Below, in pieces: positions 11,638-25,494 of a stretch of 64,000 bases of DNA; the first letter of the stretch is position 1; every line of letters starts with the position of its first letter. The position numbers and the translations under genes are program-made. Source of the stretch: an uncultured Chloroflexia bacterium (GTDB lineage Bacteria; Chloroflexota; Dehalococcoidia; GIF9; UBA5629); assembly GCA_963842805.1 (NCBI GenBank), contig CAWJIA010000011.1, forward strand, positions 23,649 through 87,648. The letters are read 5' to 3'. A model generated the notes under the pieces. The model was not told the origin of the DNA. It saw nothing but the letters and a program-made list of their open reading frames with translations, and made no database searches.

Positions 11638-12066
11638 ATGTTTGTTGGCGAATACGAATACAAGGTCGATAACAAGGGTCGTCTGCCTTTGCCACCCAAA
11701 TTCCGCAAAGACATTGATGATGGGCTTGTGCTTACCATGGTGGCGGATAACTGTATCACGGCCTACACCAGGGATGACTGGGCCAAGATGACCACCAACC
11801 AGGCCCCGACCGGGTTCCTCATGTCTGATAAGGCAAGGAAGATAAACCGTTTTATCTTCAGCAATGCCAACGAAGTCACGATAGATAATCAGGGCAGGAT
11901 ATCCCTGCCTTCAATGCTGAGGGAAAGATGTGGTATCTCCGACAGTGCCTCTATCGCCGGCGTAAACAACTATTTTGAAATTTGGAATCCGGAACACTGG
12001 AAGAAAGAAAGGATTTCCTCGGACGACGCAAGTCAAATAATGGACATTCTTGAGGAGAAGAAATGA
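11638..12066 (+). CDS. mraZ: Division/cell-wall cluster transcriptional regulator MraZ
   Basis: 142 aa; duplicated DxxGR motifs (VDNKGRLPLP and DNQGRISLP). Confidence 0.9.
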   Translation: MFVGEYEYKVDNKGRLPLPPKFRKDIDDGLVLTMVADNCITAYTRDDWAKMTTNQAPTGFLMSDKARKINRFIFSNANEVTIDNQGRISLPSMLRERCGISDSASIAGVNNYFEIWNPEHWKKERISSDDASQIMDILEEKK

Positions 12067-12998
12067 GCTTAACGTTAGAGAGAATGGTCCACACGCCGGT
12101 GCTGATCACAGAGGTCATTCAGGGGCTGGACGTGATGCCGGGGAAGCGATATGTCGACTGTACTTTAGGCGGTGGCGGCCATTCAACAGCCATACTGTCC
12201 AAATGCCAGCCCGGTGGTGAGTTGCTGGGTATAGACTCGGACCCTGAGGCCATTCGGATCGCACAACACAACCTCTATAACTATTTCGAAAGCACTATGA
12301 TCGTTAATGACAACTTCTATAACCTGGAGCAAATTTGCACGGAGACCCGTTTTATGCCGGTAGATGGTATTTTATTCGACCTGGGCCTTTCTTCCCTTCA
12401 GCTTTCCAGCGATGAACGTGGATTCAGTTTCCAGCGCAGCGGCCCGCTCGATATGAGGTTCAACCCCGATGAGCAGCTCACGGCTGCCGACATCGTCAAC
12501 AAAATGCCCGAGTCCAAGCTGGCCCAGCTCATACTTATCTACGGTGAGGAGTCTTACGCCAATCGGATAGCCAGCAATATCGTCAGGCACAGGCCGATAT
12601 CGGGTACGGCCGAACTGGCCGCCATCGTTTCCAGTTCAGTTGGCGACCGCTATACCAAGATTCATCCGGCTACCAGGACCTTTCAGGCCCTGCGCATAGC
12701 CGTCAACCGGGAACTGGATCACCTTACCTCCGCCCTCGACCAGAGCCTTAAATGCCTGGCCCCGGGGGGCAGGCTAGCGGTCATCAGCTACCATTCATTG
12801 GAAGACCGTATAGTCAAGAATTTCATGTTACGAGAAACCAGGTCCTGCATATGTCCCAGCAATATACCCGAATGCCGCTGCCATCACCAGCAGCAAATCA
12901 CCCTGATAAACAGGCATCCCATTACCCCGGCTGAAACCGAAATCGAAATAAACCCGCGCAGCAGGAGCGCCAAGCTCCGCATAGCGCAAAGATTATAA
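12063..12998 (+). CDS. rsmH: 16S rRNA (cytosine1402-N4)-methyltransferase
   Basis: HTPVLITEV...YVDCTLGGGGHS...FDLGLSS...GGRLAVISYHSLEDRIVK motifs; overlaps mraZ stop by 4 bp. Confidence 0.9.
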   Translation: MSLTLERMVHTPVLITEVIQGLDVMPGKRYVDCTLGGGGHSTAILSKCQPGGELLGIDSDPEAIRIAQHNLYNYFESTMIVNDNFYNLEQICTETRFMPVDGILFDLGLSSLQLSSDERGFSFQRSGPLDMRFNPDEQLTAADIVNKMPESKLAQLILIYGEESYANRIASNIVRHRPISGTAELAAIVSSSVGDRYTKIHPATRTFQALRIAVNRELDHLTSALDQSLKCLAPGGRLAVISYHSLEDRIVKNFMLRETRSCICPSNIPECRCHHQQQITLINRHPITPAETEIEINPRSRSAKLRIAQRL

Positions 12999-13222
12999 AA
13001 ATAGCAGGAGGCACGGAAAATGATACAAGCAAGCAGATTCGGCACCATTCTTAATAGGGATGGGAAACTCCTGGCAATATTCAGCGGCATGGTTTTTGAC
13101 GGCATCGTTTTCATCAGCCTGATAATCGCTATTGCCATACTTTACTTCTTATAGCGTGTATTAATTTACTCACCAGGAAATTTAGCAGTTAAGTATCACT
13201 AAATCGAAGGAGGCATGGATAA

Positions 13223-14449
13223 ATGACAAAAAGGTTAATCACCGGCATCGATGTAGGTACAACTAAGATTTGTACAATAGTTGCCACCCTTGATTCCGGC
13301 GGTGCCCTGCAGGTACTTGGGGTCGGCCAGGTACCTTCCCATGGTTTACACAAAGGCATGGTTGTCAACGTTGATGAAGCCAGAGATTCGGTTGCCGAAT
13401 CGGTCAAACGTGCTGAACAGGCCAGCGGTGTCAAGATCGAGTCAGCCTACATCGGCGTAACCGGCAGGCACATCAGTTCGGTCAATAGTCATGGCGTCGT
13501 GGCTATACCCCGAACCGACCGCCTTGTCAGGCAGGACGACCTGTCACGTGTTCTGTCATCTGCCAAGAACATCAACATCCCCGATGACAGAAAAATCCTT
13601 CACCAGATCCCCAGGGGTTACAGTCTGGACACCCAGGAAAAAATCAAGAACCCGGTCGGCATGCATGGGTTCAGGCTGGATGTCGAAACCCATATCATCA
13701 CCGCTTCCACTGCTTCTGTGCAGAACCTGGTTAAATGTGTTCGTAGCGTTGGTGTGGAAATCGACGACCTGGTGCTCGAACCACTGGCCAGCGGCGAGTC
13801 GGTACTTACGCCGGAAGAAAAAGAGATCGGCGTAATCATGGCAGATATCGGCGGAGGTACCACTGACATCGCCGTATTTAAGGACGGCAGTATTTATCAC
13901 ACCTCCATCATACCCGTGGCCGGCTACCAGTTCACAAGCGACCTGTCGATCGGTCTAGGTCTGCCCTTTGAAATCGCAGAAGCGATGAAGAAGAAGTACG
14001 GCAATGTTTACCCTGAGACGGGTCAGAAAGACGAGGGTTCCACCCTGACGGTGGAAGATGGACACAGCGTTTCCTACAAAGACCTTTGCAACATACTTCG
14101 GGACCGCATGGAAGAGCTGCTCAGGCTTATCTTACTGGAAATGCCGGATACCAGCTATGCATCGCTGGCCCCTGCCGGACTGGTAATGACCGGAGGTGGA
14201 TCCAAGATGAACGGCCTGGAAGCTCTCGCCCGCGGCACCATCCGCATCCCCACCAGGATAGGAGAACCAATGGGAGTCTATGGTATTACTGATGTGCTGC
14301 ATGACCCGGCCAACGCTACCGGCGTGGGTCTTCTCCTCTGGGCCATCAAGACCGGAGGAAAGCCCACATGGGAATCGAAGGGCGGCGACGCCAGAACCAG
14401 CCAGGTAAGCAACGTCATGGGCATGCTCAAGAAATTCTTTAGTGCCTGA
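13223..14449 (+). CDS. ftsA: Cell division protein FtsA
   Basis: 408 aa actin-fold protein: GIDVGTTKICTIVA, DIGGGTTDIAVF, MTGGGSKMNGL; immediately precedes ftsZ. Confidence 0.9.
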   Translation: MTKRLITGIDVGTTKICTIVATLDSGGALQVLGVGQVPSHGLHKGMVVNVDEARDSVAESVKRAEQASGVKIESAYIGVTGRHISSVNSHGVVAIPRTDRLVRQDDLSRVLSSAKNINIPDDRKILHQIPRGYSLDTQEKIKNPVGMHGFRLDVETHIITASTASVQNLVKCVRSVGVEIDDLVLEPLASGESVLTPEEKEIGVIMADIGGGTTDIAVFKDGSIYHTSIIPVAGYQFTSDLSIGLGLPFEIAEAMKKKYGNVYPETGQKDEGSTLTVEDGHSVSYKDLCNILRDRMEELLRLILLEMPDTSYASLAPAGLVMTGGGSKMNGLEALARGTIRIPTRIGEPMGVYGITDVLHDPANATGVGLLLWAIKTGGKPTWESKGGDARTSQVSNVMGMLKKFFSA

Positions 14450-14488
14450 TAATAAACATTTTTGAAATAGCAGGAGGTTTTAGAAAGT

Positions 14489-15601
14489 ATGTCGAAATCA
14501 ATGTTCTCAACAGCACCAGCTAAGATCAAAGCCATAGGCTGCGGCGGTGGCGGCTCAAATGCTATCACCCGCATGGTCCGCGAGGGGATCAAGGGCGTCG
14601 AATTCATCTGTATGAATACTGATGCGCAGGCATTAGCCCTGGCAGAGGTCCCGGTTCGCGTCCAACTCGGTGAAAAACTCACACGCGGGCTTGGCGCAGG
14701 CGGCGACCATAATGTCGGCAGGAAATCGGCCGAAGAAAGCCGTCAGGCGATCCAGGAAGTGGTATCCGGCGCTGACATGGTATTCATCACAGCAGGCATG
14801 GGTGGCGGCACCGGCACAGGCAGCATCCCTGTAGTGGCTGAAGTTGCCAGGTCATCCGGCGCTCTGACCATTGCCATCGTGACCAAACCGTTTGCCTTCG
14901 AAGGCGCAAGGCGCATGAAGGTAGCCGAAGAGGGTATCCTGCAGCTTTGCGACAAGGTAGACACCCTAGTCATCATCCCCAACGACCGCATAATCGAGCT
15001 CTGCGACAACAAAACCACAGTCGACAACGCTTTCCGGTTGGCTGATGATGTGTTGAAGCTGGGCGTGCAGGCTATTGCTGAAGTGGTAACCGTCCCTGGC
15101 CTTATCAACCTGGATTTCGCTGACATCAGGGCCATCATGAAGAACTCCGGACCGGCATGGATGTCTGTTGGCCACGGCAAGGGTTCCAACAGGGCGGTAG
15201 AGGCAGCCAAGGCGGCCCTGGCCAGCCCGATGCTCGACGTTTCTATCAGCGGCGCCAAAGGCGTACTATTCAACGTGACCGGCGGCAGCAGCCTGACGCT
15301 TTTCGAATGCAACGAGGCGGCTGACGTAATTGCCCAATCAGTCGATCCCGACGCCAACATCATATTCGGCGTGGTCTTCAATTCTCAGCTTGAGGATGAA
15401 GTCCAGATCACTATCATAGCTACCGGGTTCACCGCACAGTATGGTTCCGGGGTTCCAACCGAGGTGGAACTGCGCAGACTGTTGCGTGGAGCAACCGAAG
15501 ACAGCCTTGATGTTCCTTCATTCCTGAGAAGAGGATCGCGTTATCCCAATGCCCAATCGGGGGCACCCCGCCAGTCAGATTTTAGCAGAATGCCTCGCTA
15601 A
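14489..15601 (+). CDS. ftsZ: Cell division GTPase FtsZ
   Basis: [19 protein letters not shown] tubulin signature, ATGFT; 370 aa. Confidence 0.95.
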
Positions 15602-15633
15602 CAAAGTGTAGATCGATTAATGCATCGGACCCA

Positions 15634-15670
15634 AAGAGGTCGGAGAAATTTCTCCGACCTCTTTTATTAT
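15634..15670 (+). terminator. Rho-independent terminator after ftsZ
   Basis: aaagaggtcggagaaatttctccgacctcttt perfect hairpin followed by tattat T-rich tract. Confidence 0.7.
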
Positions 15671-15683
15671 GTATTGTTAGCCA

Positions 15684-15737
15684 TTGACTCCTACTATATC
15701 TTGTGCTAGTATCCTTCTACACCACACAGTGTAGTGT
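15684..15737 (+). promoter_or_regulatory. Promoter (TTGACT-17-TAGTAT) plus NrdR-box-like palindrome abutting nrdR start
   Basis: TTGACT 15684-15689, TAGTAT 15707-15712; palindrome ACACcACACaGTGTaGTGT at 15719-15737 (16/19 symmetric), resembles NrdR operator (ACAC..GTGT type). Confidence 0.45.
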
Positions 15738-16283
15738 TTGATGATGAAGTGCCCTTCTTGCGGAGAGATGGAATCTAAGGTGATAGATTCGCGAAGCCTT
15801 GGTGATGAAATACGGAGGCGTCGTGAATGTATTAAATGCAGGGAGCGCTTCACGACTTATGAGAGGATCCAGAACAGGGGCCTCTACGTAATCAAGAAAG
15901 ACGGCAGAAGGGAAGATTTCAATCGTGAGAAATTGTTTTCAGGCATACGCAAAGCCTGTGAGAAGCGTCCCATGCCGACTGGGACAATTGAAAAACTGGT
16001 CGAGACAATCGAAACCGACCTGTATCGCCTCGGCAAGACTGAGGTCCCCAGCTCGCTGATAGGGAAGATAATCGTCAGCAAACTGGCCGACATAGACCAC
16101 ATCGCATATATCAGATTCGCCAGTGTTTACTATGAGTTCTCGGATATAACCACTTTAAAGCAAGCGGTGGATACTCTGATCGAGAGCAAACACGGGGCAC
16201 CTCTGGACGGCCAGTTGCCCCTGATAAATCCCAGGGAAGCCGCAGGGCAAAAACGCAGAAGCAAGAAACAGCAACGTGGTTAA
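15738..16283 (+). CDS. nrdR: Transcriptional repressor NrdR (zinc ribbon + ATP cone)
   Basis: MKCPSCG...CIKC zinc ribbon followed by ATP-cone (VIKKDGRREDFNREKL...); real start likely ATG at 15741 or 15744. Confidence 0.9.
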   Translation: MMMKCPSCGEMESKVIDSRSLGDEIRRRRECIKCRERFTTYERIQNRGLYVIKKDGRREDFNREKLFSGIRKACEKRPMPTGTIEKLVETIETDLYRLGKTEVPSSLIGKIIVSKLADIDHIAYIRFASVYYEFSDITTLKQAVDTLIESKHGAPLDGQLPLINPREAAGQKRRSKKQQRG

Positions 16284-18888
16284 TAAGCAATCGAAGAATT
16301 ATCTATCGGACCCAATGCGCAATTACGTTGCGAAGACCGTCTTTACATACATGCAGACACTGGGGTTGGCCGACAGGCATCAGCAGGAAGACCTGACAGA
16401 GCAAGTAATTTTGAGGTTGGAGAAGAGTATGTCTCTTGAAGAACACACAAAAACTAAAAAAGTGGAACGCACTTTCCCCGGTATGGAAAACCTCGTAGCT
16501 TCATTGGCTCCCCAACCGCCCGGCAAGGAACAGATAGAGTCCGTGGTCAATGAACTTCTGGCAGAGAAAGCCGGCTCAAAGGCCTCGGTAGAAAGCCCCC
16601 CTGTCACGCCTTCGGCCGCTCCTGTTATCGCGCCCGCCGCCAGTGAACTAAAGCTAACTGAGAATGCTCTGATAGTCCTGGAGAAAAGATACCTGCAAAA
16701 AGATGGCCAGGGAAATGTTATAGAGACTCCCGAAGAGTTGTTCCACCGGGTCAGCAGTTACATTGCTTCCGCTGAGCTTGTGTTTGATAAATCTGCCAGG
16801 ATTGCCGAGTGGGAAGCCAAATTCTACAGTCTCATGACGTCGCTGGAATTCCTGCCCAATTCACCCACTCTCATGAATGCTGGCCGCGAGCTGGGACAAC
16901 TATCGGCCTGCTTTGTGCTGCCAATCGATGACACCATGGAGTCAATCTTCGATGCCGTTAAATATACGGCTCTGATTCATAAAAGCGGTGGAGGAACAGG
17001 CTTTTCCTTCTCACGCATCAGACCCAAGAAGGACAGGGTAGGATCTACGGGAGGCGTCGCCAGCGGACCTGTCTCTTTCATGCGCGCCTTCGATACAGCA
17101 ACAGACGTCATTAAACAGGGTGGCATGCGCCGCGGCGCCAACATGGGCATATTGAATGTAGACCACCCGGATATCCTGGAATTCATCTCATCCAAGGAAG
17201 ACCTGAAAGCATTTACGAATTTCAACATCTCGGTAGCTATTACCGACCATTTTATGAAGGCTGTGGAGCAGAATACAGACTACGATCTGATCAATCCGCA
17301 TAACAAGGAGGTTGTGGGCAAGCTTAACGCCAGGGAGGTCTTCAGCAAGATAGTAGACATGGCATGGAGAACAGGCGACCCCGGCGTAATCTTCCTGGAC
17401 AGGATAAATGAATCTAACTCAACTCCCAATCTGGGCAAAATAGAAAGCACCAACCCCTGCGGTGAACAACCTCTGTTGCCATATGAATCATGCAATCTGG
17501 GATCGATCAATTTATCAAGGATGGTCAAACGGGTCAACAGCCATAGCGAAATAGACTATGATAAGCTCAGGGAGGTTATCAAGCTGGCCGTGAGATTTCT
17601 GGATGATGTGATCGAGGTCAATAAGTTCCCTCTGCCCCAGATCGGGGAGATGACCCGTAAAACCCGCAAGATCGGGCTGGGGGTGATGGGTTTCGCCGAC
17701 ATGCTTATGCAGTTGCAGATACCATACAACTCGGATAGGGCGCTTGAAACTGCCGAGAGGGTAATGCGTTTCGTTTCGGAAGAAGCCAGTAAGGAATCCG
17801 AATCGCTAGGAAGGTCCAGGGGAACCTTCCCTGCTTTCAACGGCAGCATATATGACACCAGGAACGGACCCAGGGTGAGAAATGCCAACAGGACCACCAT
17901 CGCTCCTACCGGCACCTTAAGCATTATAGCCGGTTGCTCCAGCGGTATCGAGCCGATATTCGCCTTAAGTTACTTCCGCCATATACTCGACGGGCAGACA
18001 TTAATAGAGATCAACCCCTATTTTGAAGAAGCGGCAAAGAAGGATTGTTTCTATTCAGCCGATCTCATGAAAAAGCTGGCGGAGGGAGGGAAATTAAATG
18101 ACATTCCGTCAGTGCCCGCGCAGGTCAAGGATGTTTTTGTAACCTCGCATGACATCTCGCCCGAATGGCATGTGAAAATCCAGGCTGCCTTCCAGAAATA
18201 TACAGATAGCGCCGTTTCCAAAACGGTGAACCTGCCTCACGAAGCTACCGTAGAAGACGTGCAAAACGTTTATCTGATGGCTTACAAGCTGGGATTGAAA
18301 GGTATCACAATTTACAGAGACAGGAGCCGCGACAGCCAGGTATTGAATACGGGCCAGAAAGAACCCGTTACAGAAAAGGAAAAGAGGACGGACAATGAAG
18401 CCGAGGCCGAAGCCAGGCTTTCTCCTCGCCAGAGGCCCAAGATCACCAGGGGCATTACTGAGCGTGTAACCACTGGGTGCGGTTATATTTATGTGACCGT
18501 CAATTTTGATGATAAGGGAATATGTGAAGTTTTTTGCAGCCTGGGTAAAGCCGGAGGCTGTGCTTCCGCACAGCTTGAAGCTACCAGTCGGCTCATTTCG
18601 CTTATTTTCAGATCGGGCATCGATGTCAGCTCAGTCATAAAACAGCTGCGAGCCATCAGATGCCCTTCCGTTTCCTGGGAGCACGGACGTGCCATATTAT
18701 CCTGCGCAGATGCTATCGGCAGCGTATTGGAAAAATACGTAAAAAAAGATGATGACATCGTGCCCATAAAAAGTATCAGCCAGTCTACCGGAAGCTCTAC
18801 CGGGCAATGCCCCGACTGCGGAAATCTGCTTGTTTATCAAGAGGGCTGTCACATTTGCCCGAGTTGCGGCTATACTAAATGCGGATGA
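16276..18888 (+). CDS. nrdJ: Adenosylcobalamin-dependent (class II) ribonucleoside-triphosphate/diphosphate reductase with ~110-aa N-terminal extension and C-terminal zinc ribbon
   Basis: Conserved class II core (FLPNSPTLMNAG, SACFVLP, GGGTGFSFSRIRP, NPCGEQPL, ...TIAPTGT); C-terminal CPDCG...CPSCG; start may be a downstream Met (e.g. MSLEEH) because the annotated start overlaps nrdR. Confidence 0.85.
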   Translation: MVNKQSKNYLSDPMRNYVAKTVFTYMQTLGLADRHQQEDLTEQVILRLEKSMSLEEHTKTKKVERTFPGMENLVASLAPQPPGKEQIESVVNELLAEKAGSKASVESPPVTPSAAPVIAPAASELKLTENALIVLEKRYLQKDGQGNVIETPEELFHRVSSYIASAELVFDKSARIAEWEAKFYSLMTSLEFLPNSPTLMNAGRELGQLSACFVLPIDDTMESIFDAVKYTALIHKSGGGTGFSFSRIRPKKDRVGSTGGVASGPVSFMRAFDTATDVIKQGGMRRGANMGILNVDHPDILEFISSKEDLKAFTNFNISVAITDHFMKAVEQNTDYDLINPHNKEVVGKLNAREVFSKIVDMAWRTGDPGVIFLDRINESNSTPNLGKIESTNPCGEQPLLPYESCNLGSINLSRMVKRVNSHSEIDYDKLREVIKLAVRFLDDVIEVNKFPLPQIGEMTRKTRKIGLGVMGFADMLMQLQIPYNSDRALETAERVMRFVSEEASKESESLGRSRGTFPAFNGSIYDTRNGPRVRNANRTTIAPTGTLSIIAGCSSGIEPIFALSYFRHILDGQTLIEINPYFEEAAKKDCFYSADLMKKLAEGGKLNDIPSVPAQVKDVFVTSHDISPEWHVKIQAAFQKYTDSAVSKTVNLPHEATVEDVQNVYLMAYKLGLKGITIYRDRSRDSQVLNTGQKEPVTEKEKRTDNEAEAEARLSPRQRPKITRGITERVTTGCGYIYVTVNFDDKGICEVFCSLGKAGGCASAQLEATSRLISLIFRSGIDVSSVIKQLRAIRCPSVSWEHGRAILSCADAIGSVLEKYVKKDDDIVPIKSISQSTGSSTGQCPDCGNLLVYQEGCHICPSCGYTKCG

Positions 18889-18921: not shown

Positions 18922-20343
18922 ATGGATGCCACTGAAAATCGCTGTTCTCTTGCATTCAAGCAGATAGCTAAAGTAGTCAACAGTGATTTACCTTTAAAGA
19001 AAATAATGGGACTGATTGCCGCCAGCGCAGCGCGAGCTTTGCAAGCTTCAGGCTGTGCTATTATGCTGCTCAACCCCCAGCGTGAATATCTGGATATCAT
19101 CGGCGCTTTCGGATTGAGTGACATCTACTTACGCAAAGGAGCCTTGAACGCTCGTAAAAGCTACCCTGAGATCCTGGACGGCAAGACTGTCGCTGTTGAA
19201 GATATTATCGTCGATAAAAGGACTCAGTTCCCCGAACAAGCAGCTAAGGAAAATCTGAAGTCGCTGCTGGGTGCGCCTATTTTGCAGAAAGAGGAGGTAA
19301 TAGGGGAGATCAGGATTTACACCCATGAAAAAAAGCATTTCAAACCTCATGAGAAAGACTTCATTGCCACCGTGGCTAATATCATTGCGGTGACAGTGGG
19401 AAAAAACGAATTGTACCAGTACTTAAATACACATCATGAGACCAATGTCACACAGCAGAAGAAACTCACCAGTTTCTCCCACCTTCCTTTGAAGCCGGTG
19501 CGTCCGACCAGTTTCAGCCACCCCAGTGAAGAAGAGTTTGCCAGGTTGCTGGATTTTTACCAGGTGGAATGGCTTTACGAGCCACGTTCATTTCCATTGT
19601 CCTGGGAAGCTAACAGAATCACCGAGATGTTCACGCCGGATTTCTATCTGCCTGAGATAGATTTATATATCGAATTGACAACTTCCAGACAAAGCCTTAT
19701 CACAGAGAAGAACCATAAGCTGCGCCAGCTCAAAGAACTGTATCCGGATGTCAACGTAAAACTGCTCAATAAAGCCGATTACCTAAAGCTTTTTGTAAAA
19801 TACGATTTTATACCCCTGGGCGAAAACAAGATGAACGGCGTGCAAAAATACCTGTTCAATAAAACGCAGCTCGACAGGCGCGTAAAGTCGCTGGCCAAGC
19901 AGATATCGAAAGATTATCATGGGAAGGACCTTATTCTTATTGGCATTCTTAAAGGGGTCATATGTTTTATGTCGGACCTGATGCAGAATATATCCATACC
20001 CCTTGAATGCGATTTTATGGCGATATCCACTCCCCAGGGCAAATCCGATTCGCTAATTAAAATAACTAAAGACCTGGATATTGATATCAGAGGCAAGCAC
20101 GTATTGATGGTGGAAGATATAATCGATACGGGAATGACCTTGAACTACGTATTAAACTACCTTGCGACACGCAAGCCGGCGAGTTTAAAAGTGTGCACAC
20201 TTTTAGATAAGAGGGTTAGGCGCTTAATCGATGTACATCTCGACTATATCGGATTCGAGATACCGGACGAGTTTGTCGTGGGCTACGGCCTGGATGTCAG
20301 GGGGAAATACCGCAACTTACCCTTCATAGCGATTTTGGAATAA
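18922..20343 (+). CDS. hpt: Three-module fusion: N-terminal GAF domain, central PD-(D/E)xK-like (DUF559/Vsr-like) module, C-terminal hypoxanthine phosphoribosyltransferase
   Basis: C-terminal 175 aa match HPRT (LILIGILKGVICFMSDL..., VLMVEDIIDTGMTL PRPP motif, VVGYGLDVRGKYRNLPFI); N-terminus GAF-like (KIMGLIAASAARALQASGCAIMLL...IGEIRIYTHE); middle region EEEFARLLDFYQVEWLYEP...PDFYLPEIDLYIELT. Confidence 0.7.
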   Translation: MDATENRCSLAFKQIAKVVNSDLPLKKIMGLIAASAARALQASGCAIMLLNPQREYLDIIGAFGLSDIYLRKGALNARKSYPEILDGKTVAVEDIIVDKRTQFPEQAAKENLKSLLGAPILQKEEVIGEIRIYTHEKKHFKPHEKDFIATVANIIAVTVGKNELYQYLNTHHETNVTQQKKLTSFSHLPLKPVRPTSFSHPSEEEFARLLDFYQVEWLYEPRSFPLSWEANRITEMFTPDFYLPEIDLYIELTTSRQSLITEKNHKLRQLKELYPDVNVKLLNKADYLKLFVKYDFIPLGENKMNGVQKYLFNKTQLDRRVKSLAKQISKDYHGKDLILIGILKGVICFMSDLMQNISIPLECDFMAISTPQGKSDSLIKITKDLDIDIRGKHVLMVEDIIDTGMTLNYVLNYLATRKPASLKVCTLLDKRVRRLIDVHLDYIGFEIPDEFVVGYGLDVRGKYRNLPFIAILE

Positions 20344-20551: not shown

Positions 20552-21337
20552 TCAGGCTCCGGGCACCAGTAAAGCTATAAACAAATATATTTCCCTGCCC
20601 CACACCAAAGTCACCAGCGTACCCAAAGCCAGGAATAATCCGAAGGAAACAGGCTCGGTAAGTTTCCTGAGTCTGAGTATTACCAGGACTATTGCGGTCA
20701 GGCCACCCGTCAAAACCGCCAGGTATATTGCTGCCATGACCAGGGGAAAACCCACCATAACGCCGATCAACCCTCCCATTACAACATCGCCCAATCCTAT
20801 GACTTCTTTTTTGAATAGCCTGGCTATGCACCAGATTAGAAAGAAAAATCCGAAGCCTGAGGCAAATCCGATAGCTGCATTGACTATATCGGGAGATAAG
20901 CCTGCGAGAGTTTTGACCAATGTAATTATCAGGGCAATCCCGATGGCTGGATAGATAATTATTCCCGGTAATAAACCGCTCTCCAGGTCGGTGATGGATA
21001 GTACTACCAGGATGGAGATGTAGAGTAGGACAACCGGCAACTGCCATTGCAGTCCCAATACGGCCCATGCCAGCACAAAGAGCAGCCCTGTCATCAGCTC
21101 TACCAGCATCGACCTTAATGCTATGCCGGCGCCGCAGTAACGGCACCTGCCCCTTAATACAACATAGCTGACAACAGGTATGAGATCTCTTGTTTCCAGT
21201 GGATGACCGCACTGGAAACAATGGGACGGGGGGGATATAATCGATTTATGCTGGGGCACCCGGTCCGCCACGACATTCAAAAAACTGCCGAAGCTAATGC
21301 CGATCAAGAAAAAAATAAGCGCTAAAACAATTTCCAA
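20552..21337 (-). CDS. pilD: Prepilin peptidase (A24 family)
   Basis: 261 aa polytopic membrane protein; N-terminal CxxC...CxxC zinc motif (CFQCGH...CRYCG) and conserved D-containing GLGDVVMGGLIG segment. Confidence 0.85.
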   Translation of the reverse strand: MEIVLALIFFLIGISFGSFLNVVADRVPQHKSIISPPSHCFQCGHPLETRDLIPVVSYVVLRGRCRYCGAGIALRSMLVELMTGLLFVLAWAVLGLQWQLPVVLLYISILVVLSITDLESGLLPGIIIYPAIGIALIITLVKTLAGLSPDIVNAAIGFASGFGFFFLIWCIARLFKKEVIGLGDVVMGGLIGVMVGFPLVMAAIYLAVLTGGLTAIVLVILRLRKLTEPVSFGLFLALGTLVTLVWGREIYLFIALLVPGA

Positions 21338-21342
21338 GTGAT

Positions 21343-23814
21343 TTAATTACTTCTGTGTATTTTTGATTCTTTATCCATCAAGCCGCTGACGATTTCTTGT
21401 CCTTCGGTTTGAAATCCGCTTCCATTGTTCAACATAGCATCAACGACGCCTGCCAACAAGGTAATATCCTCGTCCGGTACAATTGCGGCCGATTTCTTAA
21501 AGGCCTGAACGGAGCCCTGGTAGTCCCCACCGTAGATATCGGAAATACCCAACAACATATATCCCTTCCAGTTGACTCCGTCACTATCAATGCGGGATTT
21601 TAAAGCACCGATTACCGAATCTATTTCACCAGCCCTGTAAGTGTTCAATACACTGCAAAAGTTCATATAGTAGGTTACATCTTTCACATCATCCTTAATA
21701 GGCGTGATAAGAAAATCAGCCGCCGCCCGGTTATCGCCTCTATATATTTGCAGCAGTCCCTGAAAAAATGAGGTCTGTATCCACAGCGGGTCGCTCTTTG
21801 TAGAGTCAGCTAATTTCTGTTCCGCAGCTTGATGATCTCCTTTGAAAATCAGCGCCAGCGCCCATTTGTTTAAAATCACCGGATTGGCCGGGAATATCCG
21901 GTCGGCTTTCTCATATAGGCCAAGGGCATCATTAAATTTGTCTTTATTACCGTTCAGAGCCCAGTAGACGTCCACATCAGCCAGCCTGTAATACCAGATA
22001 GCCATGGCCGGGTCCACGCGGATAGCCTCCTTGTAAGCTGACTCACTGAGGGAGAGCAGTTTTAACTGCTCTTGGGGGTCCTTGCTCTCTTGAGCCATCA
22101 TATAAGCCAGGTTGCCCAGGAAGTTCTGATAGTAAGATTGCTGGGGTTCAATCCTTACCGCCTCGCTATACATGGCCATAGCAGCATTCTTATCTTTGTT
22201 ATATAGGCTGAGGCCGCTCTCAACATAGGTATTAGCCAGTAACGGAGTGACGGTAAGGCCGGCTCCGATAATAATAAATATTGCAAATACTATCACTGCC
22301 ATGAATTTCCTTATCAGGCCGGGTCCTGTTCCCTCGGGTTTACACACTTCATTCAACATGCCGGCAGGCTGTTTGGGCAGGTTAATCTCTGCCGCGGAGT
22401 CGATTTTGATATTGGCCACGGTCAGCGCTAAAACCAGCCAGAACACCAGCTCCGGCGTGATAACCGACGGGTCGAAAAATACATGGGCACAGTATTGCAC
22501 AATGGCAGCAATGAAAGCCGACATAAGCAGAATTGAATCCCTTTCACCGCTTCGCAGCAGATATTTGAAGCCCATGTAGAAGAATATGCCTAGGATGACC
22601 AGGAAGGCCAGCAATCCCAGGATGCCCAGGGTCAGTGCCAGGTACAGATAATGGTTTTCGGGCTGCGAGATAACCAGCGACCCAAAGGTATATGTGCCTT
22701 TCCAGGCGGGAGGAAACCTGGTCTGTGACACGGCTATGAACGTTTCGGGCCCATATCCGATGAGGCGCCGTAAGCCGTGCAGATTATCCTGCAGATAGGG
22801 TATTTCAGGTGACTGAGTAATTACTTCGAGGGCGCACTGCCAGGTCTGTAAACGGATAGGCAACGTTCCCAGCCCAACCTGTTCGGCAACTGTGGCGCCG
22901 GGATTGCGGCTCTCGCCGGGTGCAACGCCGTTTTGTGGAACCAGCATCTGCCCCAGCAGTACGGCAGCAATAATGCCAACCAGTACGAGGGAAAAAATGC
23001 TGAGGGCCAGAGTTGCCCTCCTCTGCAGGAAAATCCCCGCTAACACAAAGAAAGCGAAAATCCCTATTATGAATAGCAGCAGGGTGATGGAATATTGCGC
23101 CAGTGCCAGGCAACACATCTGCAGGACAAATACCACCAGCAGGCCGATGAACCTGACCCACTTCCGGGTTCTGGACAACGGCGCATACCAGGTCAGTACG
23201 ATTAAAGCCAGCGTGACCGGCAAAATCATGGCTATGAAACCGCTTAACGATAGTGGGTTGCCGTCTATAGATACTACCCTGCCGCCCAATAAACCCCACG
23301 GCGCAAGGAAAAATTGCACTATGCCGATCAAACAAACTATGGCTGAAGATATCACCAGCGCATACAGGGCACGGTAAACCTGTTGGCGTGATCTTACTTT
23401 CTGTGACAGGATCAGGAAAAAGATGATCCAGGATATATTGGGGAGCAAGCCTACACTGCCCGCCAAATTCCCCCAGAGGCTCTTATAGGGCATGATGGAA
23501 CAGGCGGTCGATATCATCCATATCAAACCGAAGACCAGTACCGCAACCTGCAGCGGCGATGATTTTACTCTATCAGTTAAGTCCCTCCAACTAATTTCAT
23601 GCTTCCGGAGCAGCCACTGAGCCAGCGCCAGGCCCAGTAATGCGCACACCAGGAAAACCAGTGTAAGCGATTTAACAAAATAATAGGGGTCGAGGCAAAA
23701 AGGATCGTAAGCAAGGGGAACCAGGAAGATCGTCAGCAGCCAGATACATTCGATGGCTGTCTCCAGCCTGCCAAACAATTTGCTGCTTCGATTGCTGATC
23801 AATTCCATTAGCAT
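21343..23814 (-). CDS. Polytopic membrane protein with Wzy_C/O-antigen-ligase-like core and C-terminal TPR-repeat domain
   Basis: 823 aa; ~12 predicted TM helices in first ~470 aa, then soluble repeat domain with TPR-like helical periodicity (AYKEAIRVDPAMAIWYYRLA..., ALGLYEKADRIFPANP...); sits between prepilin peptidase and pilin. Confidence 0.5.
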   Translation of the reverse strand: MLMELISNRSSKLFGRLETAIECIWLLTIFLVPLAYDPFCLDPYYFVKSLTLVFLVCALLGLALAQWLLRKHEISWRDLTDRVKSSPLQVAVLVFGLIWMISTACSIMPYKSLWGNLAGSVGLLPNISWIIFFLILSQKVRSRQQVYRALYALVISSAIVCLIGIVQFFLAPWGLLGGRVVSIDGNPLSLSGFIAMILPVTLALIVLTWYAPLSRTRKWVRFIGLLVVFVLQMCCLALAQYSITLLLFIIGIFAFFVLAGIFLQRRATLALSIFSLVLVGIIAAVLLGQMLVPQNGVAPGESRNPGATVAEQVGLGTLPIRLQTWQCALEVITQSPEIPYLQDNLHGLRRLIGYGPETFIAVSQTRFPPAWKGTYTFGSLVISQPENHYLYLALTLGILGLLAFLVILGIFFYMGFKYLLRSGERDSILLMSAFIAAIVQYCAHVFFDPSVITPELVFWLVLALTVANIKIDSAAEINLPKQPAGMLNEVCKPEGTGPGLIRKFMAVIVFAIFIIIGAGLTVTPLLANTYVESGLSLYNKDKNAAMAMYSEAVRIEPQQSYYQNFLGNLAYMMAQESKDPQEQLKLLSLSESAYKEAIRVDPAMAIWYYRLADVDVYWALNGNKDKFNDALGLYEKADRIFPANPVILNKWALALIFKGDHQAAEQKLADSTKSDPLWIQTSFFQGLLQIYRGDNRAAADFLITPIKDDVKDVTYYMNFCSVLNTYRAGEIDSVIGALKSRIDSDGVNWKGYMLLGISDIYGGDYQGSVQAFKKSAAIVPDEDITLLAGVVDAMLNNGSGFQTEGQEIVSGLMDKESKIHRSN

Positions 23815-23879
23815 CTATAGCGGGACATGCGCTGTTTTTCACTTATTATACTATGCCGCGGGCAACTTTGGATTATACC

Positions 23880-23912
23880 AAAATGTGACCTTAGTACTAT
23901 GAAAATGTGACC
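23880..23912 (+). promoter_or_regulatory. Two direct repeats AAAATGTGACC spaced 22 bp, just upstream of pilin promoter
   Basis: exact 11-bp repeats at 23880-23890 and 23902-23912. Confidence 0.4.
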
Positions 23913-23921
23913 AATTGGCTA

Positions 23922-23949
23922 TTTACATTACGATCGGGGTCGGTATAAT
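23922..23949 (+). promoter_or_regulatory. Putative pilin promoter (TTTACA-16-TATAAT)
   Basis: TTTACA 23922-23927, TATAAT 23944-23949; strong RBS aaggagg before ATG 24039. Confidence 0.45.
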
Positions 23950-24038
23950 TGAATCGTAGGACAAAAATGGGATCAGAAGATTAACGTAGCCGGTCAGGTC
24001 GATCCGGCTTGTTGAGCAGCTAATTAAGGAGGTAACTT

Positions 24039-24344
24039 ATGAAATTATTTAAATCAGCACAAAAGGGTTTTACGCTAATCGAGTTGTTGGTGGTCATTTC
24101 CATCCTGGGTGTGCTCGCCGCTGTGGTAATACTGAACGTTACCAAGTACATGAGCGCTGGTAAGGAGCAGGCTGCGGCAACCGAGCTGGCCAATGTACAG
24201 ACGGCAGTATCAGCCTATATGTATGACAACACCGGCGCCGTCCCGTCCGGTCAGGCGGCACTATCCCCCTATTTCCTGGGCTCGCCGCATGGAACCTATT
24301 CCATTGACACGTACGGCAAGGTAACCCAGACATCCTACCCGTAA
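24039..24344 (+). CDS. pilA: Type IV major pilin (prepilin-type N-terminal cleavage/methylation domain)
   Basis: 101 aa; leader MKLFKSAQKG followed by FTLIELLVVISILGVLAAVV class III signal peptide. Confidence 0.85.
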   Translation: MKLFKSAQKGFTLIELLVVISILGVLAAVVILNVTKYMSAGKEQAAATELANVQTAVSAYMYDNTGAVPSGQAALSPYFLGSPHGTYSIDTYGKVTQTSYP

Positions 24345-24373
24345 AAACAATCAGCTAACGTAATCCGGATATA

Positions 24374-24416
24374 AAAGAGAGCGTGGACTAAAATCCACGC
24401 TCTCTTTATGCTGTTT
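24374..24416. terminator. Bidirectional rho-independent terminator between pilin (+) and pilT (-)
   Basis: aaagagagcgtgga-ctaaaa-tccacgctctcttt 14-bp perfect stem, T-runs on both strands. Confidence 0.75.
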
Positions 24417-24423
24417 TCATGCT

Positions 24424-25494
24424 TCATGGAAACCCATTATCCGACCTCAATATTTTGTTTATATCGTCTGCATCCTGGCAGAAGGCATATACCGATTCCC
24501 GCGATATTACCTTTTTCCTGAACAGGTCTACCAGCGCGTCATCCAGCGTCTTCATCCCCAGATTGGCGCTGGTGCGAATGGTGTTGGGAATCAGGAAAGG
24601 TTTCCCCTCCCTGATAAGGTTTTTAACAGCCGCGGTGGCCAGCATGATTTCCACGGCAGCCACACGTCCTCCGCCTATACGCGGCACCAGCACCTGGCAG
24701 AAAACCGCCAGTAGCGTTGATGCCAGCCTGGCCTGGGCCATCTGCCTCTCATGGGGCGGGAACAGGTCCACAATCCTCTCAACGGATTGGGCTGCGCTGG
24801 GAGCATGCCCGGTGGATAGCACCAGATGGCCTGTTTCGGCTACGGTCAGGACGGCGGAGGCCGTCTCAAGGTCCCTCATTTCACCTACCAGTATCACATC
24901 CGGGTCCTGCCTCAGCACATACTTTAAAGCATTAACGAACGAATGTGTATCCTGATCGAGCTCCCTCTGTGAGAAGGCGCATTTAAGGCCGGGGTGAACG
25001 TATTCGATAGGGTCTTCGATGGTAACGACATACCTCTGCAGCGAGTGGTTAAGGTGATTGAACATAGCAGCAATGGTCGTGCTTTTACCTGAGCCGGTGG
25101 GGCCGGTAACCAGTATCAGGCCCCTGGGACGTATTATCAGCTCCTTGGCAATATCCGGCAGCCCGATCTCTTCTACCGTCGGTATATGGTCCGACAAAAT
25201 ACGTATGGCCAAACTGATCGAGCCCTGCTGCCAGCAGGCATTACACCGGCCGCGCCCACCACCGGGAAGCTCATGCGCAAAATCAACTTCCAGCTCGCTC
25301 TTTAACAAATCCCTCAAATGCGTATTCGCGACCTGGTGAAAGAGGCGCTCTATTTCCTCGCCCGCCATGATCCCGAACTCGGGGAACGGCTTTAACTCGC
25401 CGTCAATCCTCAATATGGGAGGTACGCCTGCTACCAGATGGAGGTCGGAGCCTTTTTTATCTTGTGCCAGCTTTATCAAATCCTGGATATTCAT
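24424..25494 (-). CDS. pilT: Type IV pilus retraction ATPase PilT
   Basis: 356 aa; Walker A GPTGSGKST, ...GHLVLST, PilT-type AIRNLIRE-like motif (AVKNLIREGK). Confidence 0.9.
   Translation of the reverse strand: MNIQDLIKLAQDKKGSDLHLVAGVPPILRIDGELKPFPEFGIMAGEEIERLFHQVANTHLRDLLKSELEVDFAHELPGGGRGRCNACWQQGSISLAIRILSDHIPTVEEIGLPDIAKELIIRPRGLILVTGPTGSGKSTTIAAMFNHLNHSLQRYVVTIEDPIEYVHPGLKCAFSQRELDQDTHSFVNALKYVLRQDPDVILVGEMRDLETASAVLTVAETGHLVLSTGHAPSAAQSVERIVDLFPPHERQMAQARLASTLLAVFCQVLVPRIGGGRVAAVEIMLATAAVKNLIREGKPFLIPNTIRTSANLGMKTLDDALVDLFRKKVISRESVYAFCQDADDINKILRSDNGFP

What the first reader, a model, noticed from the sequence alone, without database searches (positions are those of the whole stretch)
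18922..20343. GAF / PD-(D/E)xK-like / hypoxanthine phosphoribosyltransferase three-module fusion
A canonical Hpt (175 aa) is fused downstream of an N-terminal GAF-like sensor domain and a middle region whose motif pattern (EEEFARLLDFYQVEW...PDFYLPEIDLYIELT) resembles the DUF559/Vsr-type restriction-endonuclease fold. Purine salvage enzymes are normally stand-alone. A sensor-domain fusion suggests ligand-regulated salvage (e.g. by cyclic nucleotides or another small molecule) or a moonlighting role.
Basis: partly seen in the sequence, partly recalled or inferred. Interest (0 to 1): 0.6.

Follow-up and report, generated by a model that had tools for sequence, protein, structure and literature searches.

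The report
Hpt enzyme with endonuclease-I-like partner domain
A purine-recycling enzyme (hypoxanthine phosphoribosyltransferase) in this Dehalococcoidia genome is fused to a small-molecule sensor (GAF) domain and to a domain descended from phage T7 endonuclease I; that nuclease-like domain turns out to be a near-constant, previously undescribed companion of this enzyme in at least 599 species, and its role is unknown.

Summary
Window 18922..20343 (+) is one uninterrupted 473-aa ORF with three modules: GAF (about residues 8-170, ending in a long helix 142-184), a PD-(D/E)xK-fold module "X" (about 196-296) and a bona fide Hpt (306-473; TIGR01203 at 194.9 bits against a cutoff of 150). More than 120 full-length homologs (64-94% identity) rule out an assembly artefact.

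The main refinement concerns X. By sequence it belongs to the T7 endonuclease I lineage: the family profile hits PDB endonuclease I at E=1.5e-5, and 22 of 54 members hit PF05367. DUF559 and Vsr are structural neighbours. X keeps the acidic catalytic residues (E203, D240, E251) invariantly. The catalytic lysine is an invariant threonine (ExT), with conserved K/R256 and invariant K263 nearby.

X is tied to Hpt. In 87 of 87 first-surveyed loci it is fused to Hpt or encoded immediately upstream, and at least 599 species-representative genomes carry it. The N-terminal module varies: GAF, a cytidylate-kinase-like P-loop domain, a basic low-complexity tail, or nothing. X is as conserved as the Hpt catalytic domain.

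Function is inferred, not shown. I favour a dimerising, metal-binding, nucleic-acid-engaging module coupled to purine salvage, with GAF as a lineage-specific input. I found no description of the X-Hpt link in the searched literature.

The parts
18922..20343 (+). Complete ORF (473 aa plus stop): GAF-X-Hpt fusion protein
   Evidence: Full-length homologs of 472-497 aa at 64-94% identity. Single copy in the window.
18943..19431 (+). GAF domain (about residues 8-170; Pfam match 26-158)
   Evidence: PF01590 E=1.1e-9 and PF13185 E=7.8e-8. PDB 3e0y E=1.3e-7. pLDDT 80-95 in the full-length model. Least conserved module, mean pairwise identity 0.45.
19345..19473 (+). Long alpha-helix (residues 142-184) running from the end of GAF toward X; a possible signalling or dimerisation helix (inference)
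   Evidence: DSSP helix H142-184 in model md80b97551f80. Confidence drops after about residue 170.
19507..19809 (+). X module (residues 196-296): PD-(D/E)xK fold, endonuclease I lineage, non-canonical ExT active-site motif
19528..19530 (+). E203, invariant; aligns to T7 endonuclease I E20 (first core helix)
19639..19641 (+). D240 of the invariant TPDFYLP motif; aligns to T7 endonuclease I D55
19672..19680 (+). E251-L-T253: E251 aligns to T7 E65; invariant T253 occupies the position of the catalytic K67
   Evidence: All phage homologs have E-x-K-G, whereas the X clade has E-(L/I)-T-T.
19687..19710 (+). R256 to K263 at the start of the second core helix. Position 256 is K or R in at least 90% of members and K263 is invariant. 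These are candidate replacements for the missing lysine (inference).
   Evidence: Precedent for lysine migration to the second core helix (Pa4535) in PMC3424549.
19837..20340 (+). Hpt catalytic domain (residues 306-473)
   Evidence: TIGR01203 194.9 bits, above cutoff. PDB 1r3u E=1.7e-57, with identical LKG, VEDIIDTG, LLDK, FVVGYGLD and YRNLP motifs.
20110..20133 (+). PRPP-binding and catalytic motif VEDIIDTG (residues 397-404)
   Evidence: Alignment to solved HGPRTs. E398, D399, D402, T403 and G404 are invariant in the family.
20026..20052 (+). Loop II (residues 369-377, STPQGKSDS): 2 residues shorter than in solved HGPRTs and lacking the Ser-Tyr dyad. The Tyr loss is specific to the window's sub-clade.
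15738..18888 (+). Upstream co-oriented nrdR (15738-16283) and class II-type ribonucleotide reductase (16276-18888); probably the same transcription unit (33-nt gap to the ORF)
   Evidence: Pfam. Terminator 15633-15664 and promoter-like site 15684-15712 lie before nrdR, with no terminator between the RNR gene and the ORF. The RNR is upstream in 25 of 44 GAF-X-HPT loci.

Best explanation
The gene encodes an active hypoxanthine/guanine phosphoribosyltransferase whose N-terminus carries two accessory modules. The first is X, a cellular descendant of the phage T7 endonuclease I family that is an ancient, essentially obligate partner of Hpt in Chloroflexota, Dormibacterota and some other lineages. 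The second is a GAF small-molecule sensor added in Dehalococcoidia.

Proposed mechanism:
- Shown: the Hpt domain has every canonical catalytic motif.
- Shown: X keeps the metal-binding acidic residues of endonuclease I (E203, D240, E251, plus E220) invariantly, but the catalytic Lys is replaced by an invariant Thr, next to a conserved basic helix (K/R256, K263, K266, R268).
- Inferred: X forms a dimer like endonuclease I, which is a domain-swapped dimer, and binds Mg2+ plus a nucleic acid or other phosphodiester ligand at the re-wired site. It probably still carries out phosphodiester chemistry using a relocated basic residue. This would physically couple nucleic-acid binding or cleavage to purine salvage and fix the oligomeric state of Hpt.
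- Inferred: GAF, through the long 142-184 helix, gates this assembly in response to an unknown metabolite. In other lineages the same input position is occupied by a cytidylate-kinase-like P-loop domain or a basic nucleic-acid-binding-type tail.

The gene is probably co-transcribed with nrdR and the class II RNR, which places it in nucleotide-pool homeostasis. The confidence of 0.4 refers to the mechanism. The architecture and the X-Hpt linkage themselves are about 0.95 certain.
For: Architecture.

Hpt motifs: about 60% identical to T. tengcongensis HGPRT, with LKG, VEDIIDTG, LLDK, GYGLD and YRNLP conserved.

Homology of X to endonuclease I. PD-(D/E)xK fold.

Active-site residues: invariance of E203, D240, E251, T253 and K263 across stand-alone and fused members from several phyla. 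Phage relatives all keep ExK.

X-Hpt linkage: 87 of 87 loci fused or adjacent; 3 of 4 further independent contexts; 3 of 3 in the first sample. At least 599 species genomes. 1706 representatives at 50% identity.

Conservation: X is as conserved as the Hpt catalytic domain (0.60 vs 0.58), while GAF is 0.45.

Variable N-terminal modules: CK2-like P-loop (L005-L007, L083) and basic RGG-like tails conserved in frame.

Dimer hint: tandem X-X with a degenerate first copy (P0313).

Context: nucleotide-metabolism neighbours (RNR, carB/pyrF, PNP) and no defence or mobile genes. X is absent from viral contigs.

Precedents: lysine migration and the endonuclease I domain swap (PMC3424549); a TilS-HprT DNA-binding complex (PMC8152036); Hpt regulation depends on oligomeric state and loop II (PMC6783271).
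Against: The canonical catalytic lysine is missing. The T7 endonuclease I structure 2pfj carries Ala at that position (ETAG), which I recall as the inactive K67A variant used to trap the junction complex, so X may not cleave anything.

No coordinates were available to test whether K263 or R256 reaches the acidic cluster.

The full-length model was poor (pTM 0.42), so there is no evidence on X-Hpt or GAF-X contacts.

Dimerisation, metal binding and nucleic-acid binding are all inferred from homology.

The X core is not basic (net charge about -0.7), although the same is true of the T7 endonuclease I core.

A nuclease step is not adjacent to the Hpt reaction in any known pathway.

One Blastocatellia contig shows X without Hpt in the 279 nt remaining.

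The 80 genome loci examined are those most similar to the query, so more distant X members may have other contexts.
Confidence: 0.4

Rival explanations
1. X is a catalytically dead endonuclease-I relic that serves only as a dimerisation and nucleic-acid-binding module. That would make Hpt a 'trigger enzyme' which binds DNA or RNA to regulate genes according to purine, PRPP or (p)ppGpp status, in the manner of PyrR, PurR or the B. subtilis TilS-HprT complex.
For: The invariant Lys-to-Thr change at the catalytic position. Strict pairing with a ligand-sensing enzyme, with sensor-type modules in the N-terminal position. Basic tails. The precedent of a gene immediately upstream of hprT encoding a partner with which HprT binds DNA (PMC8152036). 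From my own knowledge, junction binding by T7 endonuclease I does not require catalysis.
Against: All three acidic metal ligands, plus E220, are 100% invariant across phyla. From my own knowledge, inactivated PD-(D/E)xK domains normally lose these residues. No conserved target gene or RNA element was found next to the locus (no Rfam hit; variable neighbourhoods).
Confidence: 0.3
2. X is a small-molecule phosphohydrolase or nucleotide-binding domain acting on a metabolite of the Hpt reaction or its regulators (PPi, PRPP, (p)ppGpp or a cyclic/linear dinucleotide). In that case the operon or fusion would unite consecutive or regulatory steps of nucleotide salvage.
For: Rosetta-stone logic: X is fused or adjacent only to nucleotide-metabolism proteins, namely Hpt and the cytidylate-kinase-like P-loop domain, within nucleotide-metabolism neighbourhoods. 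A conserved acidic cluster lies next to a conserved Lys/Arg helix. From my own knowledge, some PD-(D/E)xK enzymes (Rai1/DXO) hydrolyse pyrophosphate linkages.
Against: Every identified relative by sequence or structure is a nucleic-acid endonuclease. Basic low-complexity tails point to polymer binding. There is no precedent within the endonuclease I lineage.
Confidence: 0.12
3. X is merely a structural oligomerisation scaffold or linker with no ligand of its own. The interesting regulation is all GAF-to-Hpt.
For: Endonuclease I is an intertwined dimer (PMC3424549). Hpt regulation depends on oligomeric state (PMC6783271). Fused Hpts have a loop II shortened by 2 residues.
Against: X is conserved as strongly as the catalytic domain, including surface polar and charged residues and the metal ligands. 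X persists with Hpt where GAF is absent (35 X-HPT and 8 X|HPT loci), so GAF cannot be the core of the system.
Confidence: 0.12
4. The fusion is an assembly or gene-calling artefact joining separate genes.
For: Some database entries are artefactual: P0261 is a frameshift read-through into DUF1697, and L092 is a frameshift-split gene.
Against: The window has a continuous frame. There are more than 120 independent full-length homologs and 44 species representatives with the same single-frame architecture.
Confidence: 0.01

Closest known systems
Bacteriophage T7 endonuclease I (gp3; Pfam PF05367 Phage_endo_I; PDB 1fzr, 1m0d, 2pfj, 3cae)
   Same: Closest family by sequence for the X module (profile E=1.5e-5). 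Same PD-(D/E)xK core order. E20, D55 and E65 correspond to the invariant E203, D240 and E251. TPDF(L/Y)LP and the (Y/H)P-x-(L/V)-x-(I/V) motif are shared. A 2012 survey already listed Dehalococcoides and Thermomicrobium proteins in this family (PMC3424549).
   Different: The catalytic K67 is an invariant Thr (ExT-T). The clade is cellular, not viral (no hit on viral contigs). It is always linked to Hpt. Identity is only 20-30%. The window's own segment does not reach any Pfam threshold. Domain-swapped dimerisation and junction cleavage are untested.
Bacterial Hpt/HGPRT (TIGR01203; e.g. Thermoanaerobacter tengcongensis HGPRT, PDB 1r3u/2geb)
   Same: Residues 306-473 are about 60% identical, with all catalytic motifs present, and score above the equivalog cutoff.
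   Different: A 300-residue N-terminal extension (GAF + X). Loop II is 2 residues shorter and lacks Ser-Tyr in this sub-clade. One relative genome (L039) carries a canonical hpt right next to the fused gene, which hints at specialisation.
TilS-HprT (B. subtilis complex; KEGG-style 'bifunctional protein TilS/HprT', the label JGI gives many homologs)
   Same: Hpt is partnered with a protein encoded immediately upstream (or fused) that deals with nucleic acid. The B. subtilis complex binds DNA and activates ftsH (PMC8152036).
   Different: There is no TilS (PP-loop) domain here and no tilS or ftsH in the sampled neighbourhoods. The JGI label is a mis-transfer. The partner here is an endonuclease-I-like domain.
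PyrR / PurR (PRT-fold proteins that double as RNA- or DNA-binding regulators)
   Same: The concept of a phosphoribosyltransferase-fold module coupled to nucleic-acid binding for nucleotide homeostasis. Weak PRT-fold hits to PyrR.
   Different: In PyrR the PRT fold itself binds RNA, and PurR uses a winged helix. Here a separate nuclease-derived domain is attached and the PRT domain is a canonical Hpt. No regulatory target is known.
DUF559 / Vsr-type endonucleases
   Different: No sequence-level hit to DUF559 or Vsr Pfam models. Sequence profiles point to endonuclease I instead.
PD-(D/E)xK proteins with a relocated lysine (e.g. Pa4535, PDB 1y0k; motif PD-EXX-K)
   Same: The pattern D...E-x-(non-K) plus a conserved Lys in the second core helix matches what PMC3424549 describes. 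Here that is ExT plus K263.
   Different: No detected homology to Pa4535. The spatial proximity of K263 or R256 to the acidic cluster was not verified.

Membership tests
Hypoxanthine phosphoribosyltransferase (TIGR01203 equivalog) | Score above the curated equivalog cutoff over the full model | tested here: met
   194.9 bits against a cutoff of 150; residues 312-472 cover model positions 3-166 of 167.
Hypoxanthine phosphoribosyltransferase (TIGR01203 equivalog) | PRPP-binding acidic motif (VEDIIDTG), loop I LKG, 6-oxopurine Lys (LLDK), GYGLD Mg site, YRNLP Arg | tested here: met
   All are identical to solved HGPRTs in the pairwise alignments and invariant or nearly invariant in the family.
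Hypoxanthine phosphoribosyltransferase (TIGR01203 equivalog) | Flexible loop II with conserved Ser-Tyr | tested here: not met
   AIST--PQGKSDS against AVSSYGSSTKSSG. Tyr is retained in most other X-linked Hpts, so this is a sub-clade peculiarity. Its catalytic consequence is unknown.
Hypoxanthine phosphoribosyltransferase (TIGR01203 equivalog) | Enzymatic conversion of hypoxanthine/guanine + PRPP to IMP/GMP | not testable with these tools
   Requires an enzyme assay.
GAF domain (PF01590 / PF13185) | Sequence match above the Pfam gathering threshold | tested here: met
   PF01590 39.4 bits (cutoff 22.4) and PF13185 33.1 bits (cutoff 28.6), residues 26-158. Confident fold in the AF2 model.
   The nearest matches are the PtsP and NifA N-terminal GAFs and PDB 3e0y. 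No evidence for cNMP.
PD-(D/E)xK (restriction-endonuclease-like) fold | alpha-beta-beta-beta-alpha-beta core topology and structural similarity to members | tested here: met
PD-(D/E)xK (restriction-endonuclease-like) fold | Canonical D...(D/E)-x-K signature | tested here: not met
   D240...E251-L-T253; Thr is invariant. Possible relocated basic residues are K/R256 and K263.
T7 endonuclease I family (PF05367) | Significant sequence similarity to the family | tested here: inconclusive
   The window segment alone has no Pfam hit and PDB endonuclease I at E=0.02-0.09. The family profile gives 3cae E=1.5e-5, and 22 of 54 members hit PF05367 with a best E of 4.3e-6. This indicates homology, but as a divergent sister clade outside the Pfam threshold.
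T7 endonuclease I family (PF05367) | Catalytic residues E20, D55, E65, K67 | tested here: not met
   E203, D240 and E251 are present and invariant. The K67 position is Thr in all X members, whereas all phage homologs have Lys.
T7 endonuclease I family (PF05367) | Domain-swapped homodimer; resolves four-way DNA junctions | not testable with these tools
DUF559 / Vsr endonucleases | Sequence match to the family models | tested here: not met
   No DUF559 or Vsr Pfam hit for the protein or for 54 family members. Only fold-level similarity.
Bifunctional TilS/HprT (the label JGI gives homologs) | N-terminal tRNA(Ile)-lysidine synthetase PP-loop domain | tested here: not met
   No TilS or ATP_bind_3 hit in Pfam or NCBIfam.
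Anti-phage defence PRTase effectors (e.g. ShosT) or defence nucleases | Match to a PADLOC model and a defence-island context | tested here: not met
   Only marginal PADLOC hits: PDC-S69 E=7e-4, ShosT E=0.016, HEAT_CxxC_PDDEXK E=0.033. The context is housekeeping.

The most novel reading that the evidence does not exclude
X-Hpt is an ancient two-part machine, widespread in Chloroflexota, Dormibacterota and relatives. In it, an endonuclease-I-derived domain with a re-wired active site (E-D-E-T plus a relocated Lys/Arg) is a metabolite-controlled nuclease or nucleic-acid switch. The Hpt domain, which binds PRPP, purine nucleotides and, in other bacteria, (p)ppGpp, together with interchangeable input modules (GAF, a P-loop kinase-like domain, basic tails), would gate cleavage or binding of a specific RNA or DNA. 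This would link nucleic-acid turnover or gene control directly to purine-pool status, a new class of trigger enzyme.
Probability: 0.25. Interest if true: 0.8.

Novelty: new variant of a known kind. Interest (0 to 1): 0.6.

Why it matters
Hpt is a textbook stand-alone salvage enzyme. In a large part of the bacterial tree (at least 599 species representatives, including abundant subsurface and soil Chloroflexota and Dormibacterota) it instead comes with a nuclease-derived partner. That partner is as conserved as the catalytic domain and is currently unannotated or mislabelled ('hypoxanthine phosphoribosyltransferase', 'TilS/HprT', 'hypothetical').

If X binds or cuts nucleic acid, this would be a new physical link between purine salvage and nucleic-acid transactions. 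It would also be a domesticated cellular branch of a phage junction-resolvase family with a re-wired active site. If X is only regulatory, it offers a new solution to the oligomer-dependent control of Hpt described for (p)ppGpp.

Either way it is directly testable with recombinant protein, and it would correct the annotation of thousands of genes.

Tried and rejected
- The full-length AF2 model was too poor (pTM 0.42) to infer inter-domain contacts.
- Net-charge analysis of X did not discriminate nucleic-acid binding, because the T7 endonuclease I core is equally neutral.
- The loss of the loop II Ser-Tyr looked like a possible family hallmark but is confined to the window's sub-clade.
- Synteny with nrdR and the RNR holds only for the closest 25 of 44 GAF-X-HPT loci, so it is not a defining feature.
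- tilS and ftsH were looked for around X-hpt and not found.
- The defence-system reading is rejected: PADLOC hits are marginal and the context is housekeeping.
- A viral origin of this clade is rejected for present-day sequences: no X relative on IMG/VR contigs.
- The 'X-PRT-DUF1697' architecture (P0261) is a frameshift artefact.
- No Rfam element, such as a purine riboswitch, was found anywhere in the window.
- Six literature searches found no description of an Hpt/endonuclease-I-like association. The 2012 PD-(D/E)XK survey lists Chloroflexi members of Phage_endo_I but never mentions phosphoribosyltransferase.
Full report
**1. The observation**

Window 18922..20343 on the + strand is a single 473-aa ORF starting at ATG with no internal stop. 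Pfam places a GAF domain at residues 26-158 (PF01590 E=1.1e-9; PF13185 E=7.8e-8) and a phosphoribosyltransferase domain at 316-459 (E=1.8e-25). The NCBIfam equivalog model for hypoxanthine phosphoribosyltransferase (TIGR01203) scores 194.9 bits against a curated cutoff of 150, over residues 312-472. The best solved relatives are bacterial HGPRTs (1r3u, E about 1e-57). The pairwise alignments show identical LKG, VEDIIDTG, LLDK, FVVGYGLD and YRNLP motifs.

**2. Not an artefact**

A search of the 5.8-billion-protein collection returned 2604 hits. The top 120 are all 427-497 aa (116 of them at least 470 aa) and 64-94% identical, with the same GAF + PRTase content. They come from Dehalococcoidia and Chloroflexi MAGs and many independent metagenomes. 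The N-terminus (MD..EN) and the protein length are conserved.

**3. The middle module (X)**

Alone, residues 186-306 hit nothing in Pfam or NCBIfam, and PADLOC gives only marginal hits. Within the family, however, X is the best-conserved stretch of the protein.

Sequence evidence:
- A single-sequence search of the PDB puts three T7 endonuclease I entries on top (E=0.02-0.09), with an alignment spanning the whole core.
- A profile built from 54 sequences raises this to E=1.5e-5 for 3cae, with 2pfj, 1m0d and 1fzr following.
- 22 of the 54 members individually hit PF05367 Phage_endo_I, best E=4.3e-6.
- tblastn against phage genomes finds 68 records at 26-40% identity, overwhelmingly annotated endodeoxyribonuclease I or Holliday junction resolvase.

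Structural evidence:
- An AF2 model of X is confident (pLDDT 83.8, pTM 0.74) and has the alpha-beta-beta-beta-beta-alpha-beta-alpha order of the PD-(D/E)xK fold.
- Against predicted viral structures there are 57 hits at E<=1e-3, led by a DUF559 protein and several proteins named Endonuclease I.

The nearest family by sequence is endonuclease I rather than DUF559/Vsr.

**4. The active site of X**

In alignments with T7 endonuclease I and four phage homologs, E203, D240 (in TPDFYLP) and E251 align with the T7 catalytic residues E20, D55 and E65. Together with E220 they are invariant in every sequence examined.

The catalytic Lys (T7 K67) is different. All phage proteins have E-x-K-G, whereas all X members, stand-alone or fused and from several phyla, have E-(L/I)-T-T. 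The PDB entry 2pfj carries Ala at this position, which I recall as the inactive K67A mutant.

Immediately after the motif, position 256 is K or R in at least 90% of members, and K263 in the second core helix is invariant. N264, K266 and R268 are also conserved. The 2012 superfamily survey documents relocation of the lysine to exactly this helix in another member, Pa4535 (motif PD-EXX-K). I could not inspect model coordinates, so whether K263 or R256 reaches the acidic cluster is untested.

**5. X is an Hpt-linked module**

- Searching with X alone found 207 proteins, mostly stand-alone genes of 107-212 aa with 55-70% identity.
- An exhaustive HMMER scan found 1706 cluster representatives at E<=1e-3, of which 828 are at E<=1e-10.
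- In the first three stand-alone contexts examined, from unrelated neighbourhoods, the next gene downstream (gaps of 1-24 nt) is a PRTase of 189-204 aa.
- I scored all 87 loci then in hand with HMMs for GAF, X, Hpt and the kinase-like domain. The result was 44 GAF-X-HPT, 35 X-HPT, 4 X|HPT, 3 CK2|X|HPT and 1 CK2-X|HPT, so X was fused or adjacent to Hpt in 87 of 87.
- X is as conserved as the Hpt catalytic domain (mean pairwise identity 0.60 vs 0.58; 57-68% vs 46-60% to the query across phyla). GAF is looser at 0.45.
- No X relative was found on IMG/VR viral contigs.

**6. The N-terminal position is modular**

Besides GAF, the position upstream of X can be occupied as follows.
- A cytidylate-kinase-like P-loop domain (PF13189, E=1e-30 to 1e-38), either fused (P0265, P0267, P0279, P0314; L083) or as an overlapping upstream gene (L005-L007).
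- Nothing, giving true two-domain X-Hpt proteins with 13-30 aa before X.
- A 150-300-aa Arg/Lys-rich repetitive tail, for example KPKRRRGSRGGRRHKK repeated 4-5 times. It is conserved in frame across species and present in called proteins. From my own knowledge this resembles tails of RNA- and DNA-binding proteins, and T7 endonuclease I also has basic termini.

One representative (P0313) is a tandem X-X whose first copy has lost the PDF and ExT motifs, which suggests a pseudo-dimer. An apparent X-PRT-DUF1697 fusion (P0261) is a frameshift artefact.

**7. Context**

In the window the ORF lies 33 nt downstream of nrdR (15738-16283) and a class II-type RNR with a TSCPD domain (16276-18888), all on the + strand. 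A strong terminator-like hairpin (15633-15664) and a promoter-like site (15684-15712) precede nrdR, and none separates the RNR gene from the ORF. These are pattern matches only.

The RNR is upstream in 25 of 44 GAF-X-HPT loci but in none of the X-HPT loci. Elsewhere the neighbours include carB and pyrF, a divergent purine nucleoside phosphorylase family gene, and UPF0182. No tilS, ftsH, defence or mobile-element genes were seen. There are no Rfam hits in the window.

One genome (L039) has a canonical hpt with the usual SSYG loop about 50 nt downstream of the fused gene. The fused form is therefore not always the only Hpt.

**8. The Hpt domain**

All catalytic motifs are intact. Fused Hpts have a loop II two residues shorter than solved HGPRTs. 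In the window's sub-clade the Ser-Tyr dyad is lost (STPQG), whereas most X-linked Hpts keep the Tyr. Loop II is the element through which the oligomeric state tunes (p)ppGpp inhibition of bacterial HPRTs (PMC6783271). That study contains no Chloroflexi enzymes and mentions no fusion.

**9. Interpretation**

Shown:
- the three-module architecture;
- homology of X to the endonuclease I lineage and its PD-(D/E)xK fold;
- retention of the acidic metal ligands and replacement of the lysine;
- the near-obligate genomic linkage of X to hpt;
- the modular N-terminal position.

Inferred: what X does. The invariant acidic cluster argues that a metal site is maintained, which is unusual for a dead nuclease domain. 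The missing canonical lysine argues against classical junction resolution, although a relocated Lys/Arg is plausible. The strict 1:1 pairing with Hpt and the sensor-type or basic N-terminal modules argue for a function integrated with purine salvage and involving a phosphate-rich or nucleic-acid ligand.

I therefore favour a dimerising, metal-binding, nucleic-acid-engaging module, probably still a phosphodiesterase, that couples to Hpt and helps organise it, with GAF as a Dehalococcoidia-specific input through the long 142-184 helix. My confidence in this mechanism is about 0.4. The rivals are:
- a catalytically dead binding and dimerisation domain that makes Hpt a trigger enzyme, as with TilS-HprT in B. 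subtilis (PMC8152036) (0.3);
- a small-molecule phosphohydrolase or nucleotide binder (0.12);
- a pure scaffold (0.12);
- an artefact (0.01).

**10. Novelty and score**

Each domain belongs to a known superfamily, and a 2012 survey had already listed Chloroflexi proteins under Phage_endo_I. I found no description of the association with Hpt, of the ExT active-site variant, or of the modular GAF / P-loop / basic-tail inputs. Databases label these proteins simply Hpt, 'TilS/HprT' or hypothetical. I rate this as a new variant of a known kind, with interest 0.6. It is a widespread and strongly conserved accessory to a textbook enzyme, with no described function in the searched literature, and it is readily testable. 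The mechanism remains inferred.

Noticed in passing
L054, L060, L065, L069, L070, L072, L078, L085 (in-frame N-termini of X-HPT ORFs); proteins P0258, P0289: Arg/Lys-rich repetitive low-complexity tails of 150-300 aa (for example 'AEAKPKRRRGSRGGRRHKKA' repeated 4-5 times, ending in a conserved 'RPRVPVTGAPT') precede X in several GAF-less lineages. They resemble nucleic-acid-binding disordered tails.
   Followed up: partly
L039:3868-4209 (+), directly downstream of GAF-X-HPT at L039:2425-3864: A second, canonical stand-alone hpt (loop II 'AVSSYGSGTESS') lies about 50 nt after the fused gene and is cut by the contig end. The fused and canonical forms can therefore coexist.
   Followed up: partly
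Protein P0313 (269 aa, from the representative search): Tandem X-X protein. The first copy has lost the PDF and ExT motifs and the second is intact. This is a possible covalent pseudo-dimer, consistent with X working as a dimer.
   Followed up: no
L005-L007 (Cytidylate_kin2 / X / PRTase operon), L083 (CK2-X fusion), proteins P0265, P0267, P0279, P0314: An uncharacterised cytidylate-kinase-like P-loop family (PF13189) is a recurrent second partner of X. It is fused to X or overlaps it by 17 nt, and it occupies the same N-terminal position as GAF.
   Followed up: partly
window 20026-20052 (residues 369-377): Hpt loop II lacks the conserved Ser-Tyr dyad (STPQG) in the window's sub-clade only, and is 2 residues shorter in all fused Hpts.
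   Followed up: yes
window 11638-15601 (+): mraZ (11638), rsmH/mraW (12063), ftsA (13223) and ftsZ (14489) lie close together with no room for mur/fts peptidoglycan genes between rsmH and ftsA. This is a strongly reduced dcw cluster, in line with my recollection that Dehalococcoides-type bacteria lack peptidoglycan.
   Followed up: no
window 16276-18888 (+) and 15738-16283 (+): The ribonucleotide reductase (870 aa) carries a C-terminal TSCPD domain and ends in a Cys-rich C-x2-C...C-x2-C tail. It overlaps the nrdR stop by 8 nt (GTG start).
   Followed up: no
window 20552-25494 (-): A convergent cluster: prepilin peptidase (A24) at 20552-21337, an 823-aa polytopic membrane protein with C-terminal TPR repeats at 21343-23814, and a T2SSE/PilB-type ATPase at 24424-25494. 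This looks like a type IV pilus or secretion-like locus.
   Followed up: no
L092:2933-4360: GAF, X and PRTase are called as four separate short genes in frames 1, 0, 2, 1. This is most likely indel errors in a long-read assembly splitting a GAF-X-Hpt gene, which is a caution for counting 'stand-alone' X proteins.
   Followed up: yes
L094 (Blastocatellia MAG contig DATLZH010000699.1), protein P0181; also P0128: Stand-alone X with an extra N-terminal domain of about 80 aa ('...INVYLRVKDGGATVVF...') and no Hpt in the remaining 279 nt of the contig. This is a possible exception to the X-Hpt rule.
   Followed up: partly
Protein P0261: The apparent X-PRTase-DUF1697 fusion is a frameshift read-through. 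The Hpt domain runs out of frame after 'RYLLT', so it is not a real architecture.
   Followed up: yes
Homolog annotations: JGI labels many GAF-X-Hpt proteins 'bifunctional protein TilS/HprT' and many stand-alone X proteins 'hypoxanthine phosphoribosyltransferase'. Both labels are annotation transfers that the domain content does not support.
   Followed up: yes
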